DNA of 64,000 nt from NCBI RefSeq assembly GCF_009914755.1, contig NC_060939.1; one strand, given 5' to 3'. Made by a program: the position numbers and the translations under genes. Shown piece after piece: positions 2,396-3,302 of this stretch (position 1 is its first letter; every line of letters begins with the position of its first letter). This DNA is from the human T2T-CHM13v2.0 reference genome, Homo sapiens. The notes below the pieces were generated by a model. It was not told where the DNA came from, did not search any database, and saw only the letters and a list, made by a program, of their open reading frames with translations.

Positions 2396-2464
2396 AGGAA
2401 GCAAAGAGAAGTACTTAGGCCCATCACCACCTTCCTAGACCTCCCTCCCATTCACACCCCACCC
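2396..2464. repeat. Inverted repeat arm A (69 bp), covering the 3' splice-site region of OAZ2 intron 3
   Basis: Reverse complement of 3234-3302 with one mismatch (2406/3292). Confidence 0.98.
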
Positions 2465-2529
2465 CCACCCCTACCAACCCAAAGGCTTTTCTGAGGCCTA
2501 CAACCAGCAATATAAATACAGAAGCTCTG

Positions 2530-2824
2530 GGCTGGGCACAGTGGCTCACACCTGTAATCCCAGCACTTTGGGAGGCCGAGGCAGGTGGATCACGAGGTCA
2601 GGAGATCAAGACCATCCTGGCTAACACGGTGAAACCCCATCTCTACTAAAAATACAAAAAACTAGCCGGGCGTGGTGGTGGGCGCCTGTAGTCCCAGCTA
2701 CTCGGGAGGCTGAGGCAGGAGAATGGCATGAACCTGGGAGACGGAGCTTGCAGTGAGCCGAGATCGCACCACTCCACTCCAGCCTGGGCGACAGAGTGAG
2801 CCTCCATCTCAAAAAAAAAAAAAA
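2530..2824 (+). mobile_element. AluY-like SINE in OAZ2 intron 3
   Basis: Full dimer, AluY diagnostics (ggctaacacggtg, gagcttgcagtg), TSD-like cagaagctc on both sides. Confidence 0.95.
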
Positions 2825-3233
2825 TTCAGAAGCTCCAGGAGGAAGATTCCTATGTCAAGACCCCAAGAGCCTTGAATTCTGGAAAAAAAAAAAAAAAAAG
2901 CCACAGCGCCTGAGAAAAATGTTACTAACTTTTCTCTTCCTGCAATAGGAGATCTGAAAGTAACACTACCCATCTTAACTAATGCTGTCCACAAGACAGA
3001 GTCTGGGGCCTAGAAAGAAAACCCAGTTCTTCAGGTGTCCCACAGATTGCCAAGTCTGATATGATCACCTGCCACTGAGAGGGACACTCTGGGCTCTAAC
3101 ACTGCCTAAAAGGATTTTCTCAAGAGGCTGGGACCACTCAGGAACTCTGTCCTCAGGACATTTCTTACCCATCTTGGCTGCTTGGAGGGTCTTTGCCCAA
3201 TCCAATGAAATCCCACTTACCTCTGAGCTTCCT

Positions 3234-3302
3234 GGGTGGGGTGTGAATGGGAGGGAGGTCTAGGAAGGTGGTGATGGGCCTAAGTACTTCTTTTTGCTTC
3301 CT
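3234..3302. repeat. Inverted repeat arm B (69 bp) in OAZ2 intron 3
   Basis: Reverse complement of 2396-2464; gcttcct occurs as a direct repeat at 3227-3233 and 3296-3302. Confidence 0.98.

What the first reader, a model, noticed from the sequence alone, without database searches (positions are those of the whole stretch)
2396..3302. Near-perfect 69-bp intronic inverted repeat positioned to mask the OAZ2 exon 4 splice acceptor
Seen: 2396-2464 and 3234-3302 are reverse complements at 68/69 positions, are not Alu-derived, and enclose a 769-nt loop. In the pre-mRNA the downstream arm (GGGUGGGG...GGGCCUAAGUACUUCUCUUUGCUUCCU) ends one base before the CAG acceptor of exon 4, so it contains the whole polypyrimidine tract and a plausible branch point (CCUAAG). 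The only mismatch is A(3292):C(2406), the geometry ADAR enzymes prefer. Inference: a long-range duplex could gate exon 4 recognition (intron 3 retention, exon 4 skipping, or diversion to back-splicing), adding an RNA-structure control on top of the frameshift. Polyamines stabilise RNA duplexes, so polyamine sensitivity is testable. The upstream arm also carries clustered CAC motifs (AUCACCAC, UUCACACCCCAC), the type bound by RBPMS-family proteins encoded next door; that link is speculative.
Basis: partly seen in the sequence, partly recalled or inferred. Interest (0 to 1): 0.85.

Follow-up and report, generated by a model that had tools for sequence, protein, structure and literature searches.

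The report
Young inverted copy of OAZ2 acceptor
A 69-base stretch just upstream of OAZ2 exon 4 was copied backwards into the same intron fairly recently, most likely by a replication slip, so the RNA could fold over that splice site, but nothing yet shows that the fold has a function.

Summary
Arms 2396-2464 and 3234-3302 are reverse complements at 68 of 69 positions, 769 nt apart. Both lie in OAZ2 intron 3. In the minus-strand pre-mRNA the downstream arm ends one base before the CAG acceptor of exon 4, and the single mismatch is A(3292):C(2406).

The arm sequence occurs only at these two places in the genome, and neither arm is repeat-masked. Arm B is preceded by the same 7 nt that end it (GCTTCCT). 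Only 0.13% of trial placements reach 7 nt or more, and arm A has only 1 nt. I read this as a one-step templated inverted insertion with a microhomology-guided return. That would also explain why the copy stops just before GCAG. The 1.4% arm divergence suggests a primate-age origin.

Thermodynamic folding predicts a -145.5 kcal/mol duplex that buries the branch-point and polypyrimidine region. However, both RefSeq mRNAs include exon 4, and five OAZ2 literature searches found nothing on this repeat. A 200-kb control sample held two more genome-unique inverted duplications of similar geometry. The structure is real, its origin is ordinary, and a regulatory role is untested. The back-splicing and RBPMS ideas are unsupported.

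The parts
2396..2464 (-). Arm A, the source copy. It is the downstream arm in the pre-mRNA, at intron 3 positions 1132-1200 of 1204. It holds G-runs, candidate branch points (CUAAG, UGAU) and the polypyrimidine tract of the exon 4 acceptor.
   Evidence: Junction ambiguity is only 1 nt, and its place next to a used acceptor argues that it is the original. The branch-point assignment is by motif only (inference).
3234..3302 (-). Arm B, the inserted reverse-complement copy. It is the upstream arm in the pre-mRNA, starting 294 nt into intron 3. It is C-rich with five CAC.
   Evidence: It matches arm A at 68 of 69 positions and occurs nowhere else in the genome.
3227..3233 (.). The 7-nt GCTTCCT directly left of arm B, identical to arm B's last 7 nt (3296-3302). 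This is junction microhomology.
   Evidence: Ambiguity is 7 nt at arm B and 1 nt at arm A. A value of 7 or more occurs at 81 of 63,731 trial placements (0.13%).
2392..2395 (-). GCAG, with the exon 4 acceptor AG at 2393-2392. It lies just outside the duplex.
   Evidence: sequence and exon coordinates.
2306..2391 (-). OAZ2 exon 4 (86 nt, coding), present in both RefSeq mRNAs.
2465..3233 (-). The 769-nt loop between the arms. It contains one Alu (2522-2835, antisense in the pre-mRNA).
2406..2406 (-). The only mismatch: C in the pre-mRNA opposite A at 3292, which sits in the context AAAAAG.
2443..2480 (-). Cluster of canonical G-quadruplex motifs and G-runs in the pre-mRNA. It overlaps the 5' part of arm A and could compete with the long-range duplex.
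   Evidence: regex scan. Competition is inference.

Best explanation
Arm B is a young, single-event, templated inverted insertion. During replication or repair a nascent + strand left its template near 3233 and copied about 69 nt of nearby sequence, the exon 4 branch-point and polypyrimidine region, in reverse complement. It returned when its new 3' end (GCTTCCT) re-annealed to the identical 7 nt at the original site. This is a template-switch or microhomology-mediated event at longer range than the usual short-range cases. The copy's end next to the acceptor is therefore a by-product of where the microhomology lay.

As a consequence, intron 3 RNA can form a 69-bp duplex that would bury the acceptor's signals. 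I think this duplex forms in only a fraction of nascent transcripts, or after the splicing commitment. If so, its main effects would be modest: some slowing of intron 3 removal and probable ADAR editing of the intron, with no dedicated regulatory role.

Shown here: the repeat, its uniqueness in the genome, the microhomology and the predicted stability. Inferred: the mechanism of origin, the age, partial formation in vivo and near-neutrality.
For: - **Match:** 68 of 69 positions with sharp ends.
- **Copy number:** only two places in 3.1 Gb, and neither arm is masked.
- **Microhomology:** 7 nt at arm B's left junction against 1 nt at arm A. The empirical frequency of 7 nt or more is 0.13%.
- **Known mechanism:** template switching copies nearby sequence in reverse complement and creates inverted repeats and hairpins (PMC5453318 passages; PMC8794818 abstract start in the listing).
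- **Age:** divergence is 1/69 = 1.4%, 95% CI 0.04-7.8%. That is too little for an old unconstrained repeat.
- **Exon use:** exon 4 is in 2 of 2 RefSeq mRNAs.
- **Background:** 200 kb of control sequence held 2 more unmasked, genome-unique inverted duplications with 834 and about 950 nt spacers. The class is not rare.
- **Folding:** in the fold of the transcript made before arm A emerges, the upstream arm has a mean unpaired probability of about 0.5. The downstream arm carries G4 motifs. Both fit with competition against the long-range duplex.
Against: - No outgroup sequence could be read, so the absence of arm B in other species is not shown and the age rests on a single substitution.
- Only one of the two junctions has microhomology.
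- The 769-nt distance exceeds the tens-to-hundreds of nt used in published short-range template-switch scans.
- At equilibrium the duplex is overwhelmingly favoured: 68 of 69 pairs in the MFE, mean pair probability 0.98, ddG about -100 kcal/mol. A strong effect on splicing therefore cannot be excluded.
- Conserved complementary regions are depleted at active splice sites and branch points (PMC8052449 passages). A duplex at this position is the kind expected to matter.
- A long-read study reports a new, highly expressed OAZ2 isoform whose structure I could not see because it is in a figure only.
Confidence: 0.65

Rival explanations
1. One reading: the duplex is a working gate on exon 4 recognition. 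It would tune OAZ2 output through intron 3 retention or exon 4 skipping (86 nt, which shifts the frame). Polyamines, ADAR editing of the A:C site or helicases might modulate it.
For: - The predicted duplex is -145.5 kcal/mol and lowers the unpaired probability of the BP/PPT/AG region from 0.225 to 0.027.
- Nascent-RNA duplexes that sequester a 3' splice site do change exon inclusion, for example MEGF8 exon 14 (PMC12519161 passages).
- Structures overlapping splice sites are generally obstructive (PMC8052449 passages).
- The A:C mismatch in a 69-bp duplex is a good ADAR target.
Against: - Both RefSeq mRNAs (2 of 2) include exon 4, and no retained-intron or skipped form is annotated there.
- No paper in the library links OAZ2 to intron retention or exon skipping at this site.
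- The arm's position is explained by microhomology.
- The repeat is too young to show covariation.
- From recall only (title seen): Eperon et al. 1988 found that hairpins with long loops sequester splice sites poorly in vivo.
- Polyamine sensitivity has no evidence.
Confidence: 0.12
2. An old, selectively maintained long-range RNA structure shared across mammals, kept near-perfect by selection or gene conversion.
For: It sits next to a splice site in a conserved gene, and its predicted energy is very strong.
Against: - Sixty-eight Watson-Crick pairs with no G:U and no bulges is not what conserved structures look like after long divergence.
- One junction carries an insertion-type microhomology.
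- OAZ2 is not mentioned in the main text of the catalogue papers read.
Confidence: 0.03
3. Terminal inverted repeats of a transposable element (MITE-like) that carries an Alu inside it.
For: It has inverted termini around an about 900-bp unit.
Against: - The arm has only two places in the genome and is not masked.
- No target-site duplication flanks 2396-3302 (flanks read).
- One 'terminus' is the functional polypyrimidine tract of a conserved exon.
Confidence: 0.01
4. An assembly artefact or a private or rare allele of the reference haplotype, not a fixed human feature.
For: Only one assembly was read. Small fold-back artefacts do occur in long-read data.
Against: T2T-CHM13 is a polished assembly (general knowledge). 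The single transition difference between the arms and the clean microhomology junction look biological. This could not be tested here because reads and other assemblies were off.
Confidence: 0.04

Closest known systems
Template-switch mutations (four-point model, Löytynoja & Goldman 2017) and microhomology-mediated template switching (FoSTeS/MMBIR)
   Same: A nearby segment is copied in reverse complement in one event. This creates a perfect inverted repeat that can fold as a hairpin, and one junction has microhomology.
   Different: The fragment is 69 nt and the source is about 770-840 nt away. Published scans look within tens to hundreds of nt, for example +/-100 nt. The ancestral state was not seen here.
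Long-range intronic complementary regions that obstruct splice sites (PCCRs, Kalmykova et al. 2021; CAR-SPLASH 'RNA kinetic switches', e.g. the MEGF8 exon 14 3' splice site)
   Same: Two complementary segments within one intron, one of them over a 3' splice-site region, with a stable predicted duplex.
   Different: Those structures are defined by conservation or by cross-link reads, and some by antisense-oligo tests. This one has none of that evidence. It is far longer and more perfect than is typical, and it covers a constitutively used acceptor and its branch-point region, where such structures are normally depleted.
Long perfect dsRNA substrates of ADAR, including engineered guide RNAs of 60 nt or more with an A-C mismatch (LEAPER-type)
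   Same: A 69-bp duplex with one A:C mismatch.
   Different: The mismatch is 11 nt from one end, not central. The target A is intronic with A on both sides. No editing data were seen.
Inverted Alu pairs that drive exon circularisation or loop-out skipping
   Same: Intronic inverted repeats that form dsRNA.
   Different: Both arms are in the same intron and enclose no exon. The sequence is not Alu and is unique in the genome. A true inverted Alu pair does flank exons 2-3 in this gene.

Membership tests
Template-switch / microhomology-mediated templated insertion | The inserted segment is a reverse-complement copy of nearby sequence on the same chromosome | tested here: met
   68 of 69 positions match, 769 nt apart, and only two places in the genome.
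Template-switch / microhomology-mediated templated insertion | Microhomology at the switch points | tested here: inconclusive
   There are 7 nt at one junction (0.13% of null placements reach this) and 0 nt at the other. An extended gapped similarity of the left flank is not significant (4% of null).
Template-switch / microhomology-mediated templated insertion | The copy is absent from the ancestral or outgroup sequence | not testable with these tools
   No primate or mammalian genomes are reachable. Age is inferred only from 1/69 divergence.
Template-switch / microhomology-mediated templated insertion | Short range (tens to hundreds of nt) as in published scans | tested here: not met
   The spacer is 769 nt. 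[quoted passage not shown] This limits membership in the short-range class, not the mechanism.
Splicing-regulatory long-range RNA structure | Stable complementary segments positioned over a splicing signal | tested here: met
   Duplex -145.5 kcal/mol, 68 of 69 pairs in the MFE, and it covers the BP/PPT. This is prediction only.
Splicing-regulatory long-range RNA structure | Conservation or compensatory substitutions | not testable with these tools
   There are no orthologues to compare, and near-identity of the arms leaves nothing to covary.
Splicing-regulatory long-range RNA structure | Duplex detected in cells, and splicing changes when it is disrupted | not testable with these tools
   OAZ2 has 0 occurrences in the main texts of PMC8052449, PMC10691357 and PMC12519161. 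Supplements were closed. RefSeq shows exon 4 in 2 of 2 mRNAs.
ADAR substrate | Long, near-perfect dsRNA | tested here: met
   A predicted 69-bp duplex with 32 adenosines (21 + 11) and one A:C mismatch.
ADAR substrate | Observed A-to-I editing | not testable with these tools
   No RNA-seq or editing database was available. Papers that pair OAZ2 with dsRNA or editing are reviews that, where I opened them, name OAZ2 only in the AZIN1 context.
Inverted-repeat-driven circRNA biogenesis | Complementary arms lie in the two introns that flank the circularised exon(s) | tested here: not met
   Both arms are inside intron 3, 2392-3595.
Transposable element with terminal inverted repeats | Many dispersed copies and a target-site duplication | tested here: not met
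   Two places only, not masked, and no direct repeat flanks 2396-3302.

The most novel reading that the evidence does not exclude
A primate-lineage replication slip placed a 69-bp dsRNA clamp on the branch point and polypyrimidine tract of a constitutive exon in a polyamine-sensing gene. The clamp now throttles OAZ2 mRNA output, through detained intron 3 or frame-shifting exon 4 skipping. The throttling would depend on elongation rate, helicases, ADAR editing of the A:C site or polyamine level. That would add a lineage-specific RNA-structure layer on top of the ancient +1 frameshift sensor.
Probability: 0.08. Interest if true: 0.7.

Novelty: new member of a known kind. Interest (0 to 1): 0.33.

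Why it matters
If it is only a neutral templated insertion, it is still a clean, datable example of template switching at a range of nearly 1 kb. In one step it wrote a perfect 69-bp hairpin over a used splice acceptor. It would show that a constitutive exon can tolerate such a structure, which bears on how much long-range folding actually happens on nascent RNA.

If the duplex does act, OAZ2 would be a lineage-specific case of structure-gated splicing in a polyamine-feedback gene. One antisense oligo against the upstream arm would test it directly. The small control sample also hints that genome-unique inverted duplications about 0.8-1 kb apart are fairly common. A genome-wide census against splice sites would be informative.

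Tried and rejected
- **Repeat family or transposon origin: rejected.** The arm has two genome places only and is not masked.
- **Longer, more diverged homology around the arms: rejected.** There is no extension on either side. Gapped similarity of the left flank beyond the 7-mer is not significant (4% of null).
- **Known RNA family: none.** Rfam at gathering threshold over 1-17000 returns only the expected Antizyme_FSE at 4682-4737 on the minus strand.
- **Back-splicing: rejected on geometry.** circBase lists two OAZ2 circRNAs of 765 and 123 nt (PMC11202255 passages). I could not get their coordinates. Neither length equals any sum of whole exons. The closeness of 765 to the 769-nt loop is unexplained and may be coincidence.
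- **Literature.** OAZ2 paired with 'inverted repeat' gave 1 paper, irrelevant. With 'intron retention' it gave 5 papers, 4 listed, and none of the 3 I opened concerns this intron. With 'circRNA' it gave 19, with 'exon skipping' 0 and with 'dsRNA' 9, judged from the listing only. The search 'OAZ2 / alternative splicing / intron 3' was poorly set (min 2 of 3 terms, 2,168 hits). The one paper holding all three terms concerns SAT1 intron 3. The claim that nothing is in print rests on these searches of the held library only. Subscription journals and all supplements, including the PCCR, RIC-seq and CAR-SPLASH tables, were not seen.
- **Eperon et al. 1988.** I saw only its title in a reference list. 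What I say about it is recalled.
- **Background rate.** I wanted 3.2 Mb and obtained 200 kb, so the estimate is crude: 2 control cases, roughly 10 per Mb, Poisson 95% CI about 1-36 per Mb. Of 80 inverted repeats in the 264 kb scanned (30 nt or more, 90% or more, spacer 2 kb or less), 76 had an arm at least half masked and were set aside. A fourth unmasked one (L007, 37 nt, AT-rich, 24-nt spacer) is low-complexity.

Full report
**Observation.** The sequence and the repeat finder show an inverted repeat with arms 2396-2464 and 3234-3302. The arms are 69 nt, 99% complementary and 769 nt apart. My script finds a single mismatch, + strand G2406 against T3292, and no extension of the match on either side.

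OAZ2 is on the minus strand. RefSeq exons put both arms inside intron 3 (2392-3595). Exon 4 is 2306-2391 and its acceptor AG is at 2393-2392. In the pre-mRNA, arm A is the downstream arm and ends at 2396, one base (2395) before CAG. The mismatch reads A(3292):C(2406).

**What it is not.** A search of the whole 3.1-Gb assembly with the 69-mer returns only these two places. The only masked repeat in intron 3 is the Alu at 2522-2835. No target-site duplication flanks the unit. Rfam finds only the antizyme frameshift element in exon 2 (4682-4737, minus strand). It is therefore not a transposon, not Alu-derived and not a catalogued RNA.

**Origin.** Arm B is preceded by GCTTCCT (3227-3233), which is identical to its own last 7 nt (3296-3302). 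Arm A has only 1 nt of such junction ambiguity.

I placed the same 69-mer at every position of the window with arm B removed. An ambiguity of 7 or more arises at 81 of 63,731 positions (0.13%), and that count includes the true site. Gapped similarity beyond the 7-mer is not significant.

This is the signature expected if a nascent + strand switched template, copied 2464 down to 2396 in reverse complement, and re-annealed to its original template through the newly made GCTTCCT. [quoted passage not shown] Its microhomology-mediated relatives are cited in PMC7954356.

The range here, about 0.8 kb, is longer than the +/-100 nt searched in those scans. I therefore file it as working like a template switch, without claiming membership of the short-range class.

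The microhomology also explains why the copy ends at ...CCT, one base short of the CAG. The apparent positioning over the acceptor needs no functional explanation.

**Age.** One difference in 69 nt gives 1.4% (exact 95% CI 0.04-7.8%). From my own knowledge, not a call, human-chimpanzee divergence is about 1.2% and human-macaque about 6%. On that scale the copy is of ape to catarrhine age at most, unless gene conversion is at work. No outgroup could be read, so this is inference.

**RNA consequences (prediction only).** I folded exon 3-intron 3-exon 4 (1,466 nt). This gives 68 of 69 arm pairs in the minimum-energy structure and a mean pair probability of 0.98. The arms alone form a -145.5 kcal/mol duplex. 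Forbidding the upstream arm to pair costs 99.6 kcal/mol.

The mean unpaired probability of 2392-2440 (candidate branch points, polypyrimidine tract, AG) under three conditions:

| Condition | Mean unpaired probability |
|---|---|
| Present sequence | 0.027 |
| Arm B removed in silico | 0.225 |
| Pairs limited to a span of 150 nt or less | 0.36 |

At equilibrium, then, the acceptor's signals are buried.

Four points weigh against efficient formation in cells:
- The arms are 769 nt apart.
- The upstream arm has a mean unpaired probability of about 0.5 in the fold of the transcript made before arm A emerges.
- Arm A carries canonical G4 motifs and G-runs at 2443-2480.
- From recall only, long-loop hairpins sequester splice sites poorly in vivo (Eperon et al. 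1988; I saw the title only).

**Evidence on function.** Both RefSeq mRNAs include exon 4. Conserved complementary regions are depleted at active splice sites and branch points and tend to obstruct splice sites (PMC8052449 passages). A 3' splice-site-sequestering nascent duplex in MEGF8 changes exon inclusion when blocked (PMC12519161 passages).

OAZ2 itself has 0 occurrences in the main texts of these papers and of PMC10691357 and PMC13019027. Library searches pairing OAZ2 with inverted repeat, intron retention, exon skipping, circRNA and dsRNA found nothing on this repeat.

A long-read study reports a new OAZ2 isoform, Tx572, as the most expressed in its brain samples. The text does not describe its structure.

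The ADAR point is sound as chemistry. A opposite C is preferred, and duplexes of 60 bp or more recruit endogenous ADAR (PMC10244592 passages). The duplex holds 32 adenosines. No editing data were available.

The back-splicing idea fails on geometry, because both arms are in one intron. The RBPMS idea rests on CAC motifs that are simply complements of the copied GUG motifs (5 and 5) and on gene adjacency.

**How ordinary is the class?** I obtained 20 control pieces of 10 kb from chr15:61.0-61.4 Mb.

Scanning these plus the window (264 kb) found 80 inverted repeats with arms of 30 nt or more, 90% identity or more and spacers of 2 kb or less. Of these, 76 lay in masked repeats. The four unmasked ones were:
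- the OAZ2 repeat;
- a 165-nt, 97% pair 834 nt apart in APH1B (L006);
- a pair with a 53-nt core at 96%, or about 89 nt at 89%, roughly 950 nt apart (L013);
- an AT-rich 37-nt palindrome (L007).

The L006 and L013 arms are also confined to their own two local places in the genome, apart from one weak 51-nt partial hit for L006. Two cases in 200 kb is a crude rate. It does suggest that local inverted duplications of this geometry are not rare, so some will land on splice-site regions by chance.

**Verdict.** The structure is real and striking, and its origin is very probably an ordinary one-step templated inversion-duplication. A regulatory role is possible and cheaply testable but is unsupported at present. 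I rate it a new member of a known kind, with moderate-to-low interest.

Noticed in passing
window 2522-2835 and 4854-5161: An inverted Alu pair (141 nt aligned at 87%) sits in intron 3 and intron 1 and flanks OAZ2 exons 2-3. That is the classic geometry for exon circularisation or loop-out. The two circBase OAZ2 circRNAs quoted in PMC11202255 (765 and 123 nt) do not match exons 2+3 (334 nt).
   Followed up: partly
window 3234-3304, + strand: Read on the + strand, arm B is a copy of the branch-point and polypyrimidine region followed by TAG. That makes an acceptor-like site antisense to OAZ2. No antisense transcript is annotated there.
   Followed up: no
window 2443-2480, minus strand: Six overlapping canonical G-quadruplex motifs and G-runs lie in the pre-mRNA just upstream of the exon 4 branch-point region. 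They could be hnRNP H/F-type intronic enhancer or rG4 elements, and the C-rich upstream arm would mask them.
   Followed up: partly
L006 7966-8130 / 8965-9129 (chr15:61107966-61109129, APH1B): A genome-unique inverted repeat of 165 nt at 97% with an 834-nt spacer. Its left arm starts at exactly the annotated 3' end of predicted mRNA XM_054378982.1.
   Followed up: partly
With n=3 this may be chance or may hint at a characteristic template-switch distance.
   Followed up: no
window 4682-4737, minus strand: The antizyme +1 frameshift stimulation element (Rfam RF00381, 76.2 bits, E 2.5e-16) lies in exon 2, as expected for OAZ2.
   Followed up: yes
OAZ2 gene (window 796-16500): A long-read brain study reports an unannotated OAZ2 isoform (Tx572) as the most expressed and supported by peptides. 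Its exon structure is shown only in a figure, so I could not tell whether intron 3 or exon 4 is involved.
   Followed up: partly
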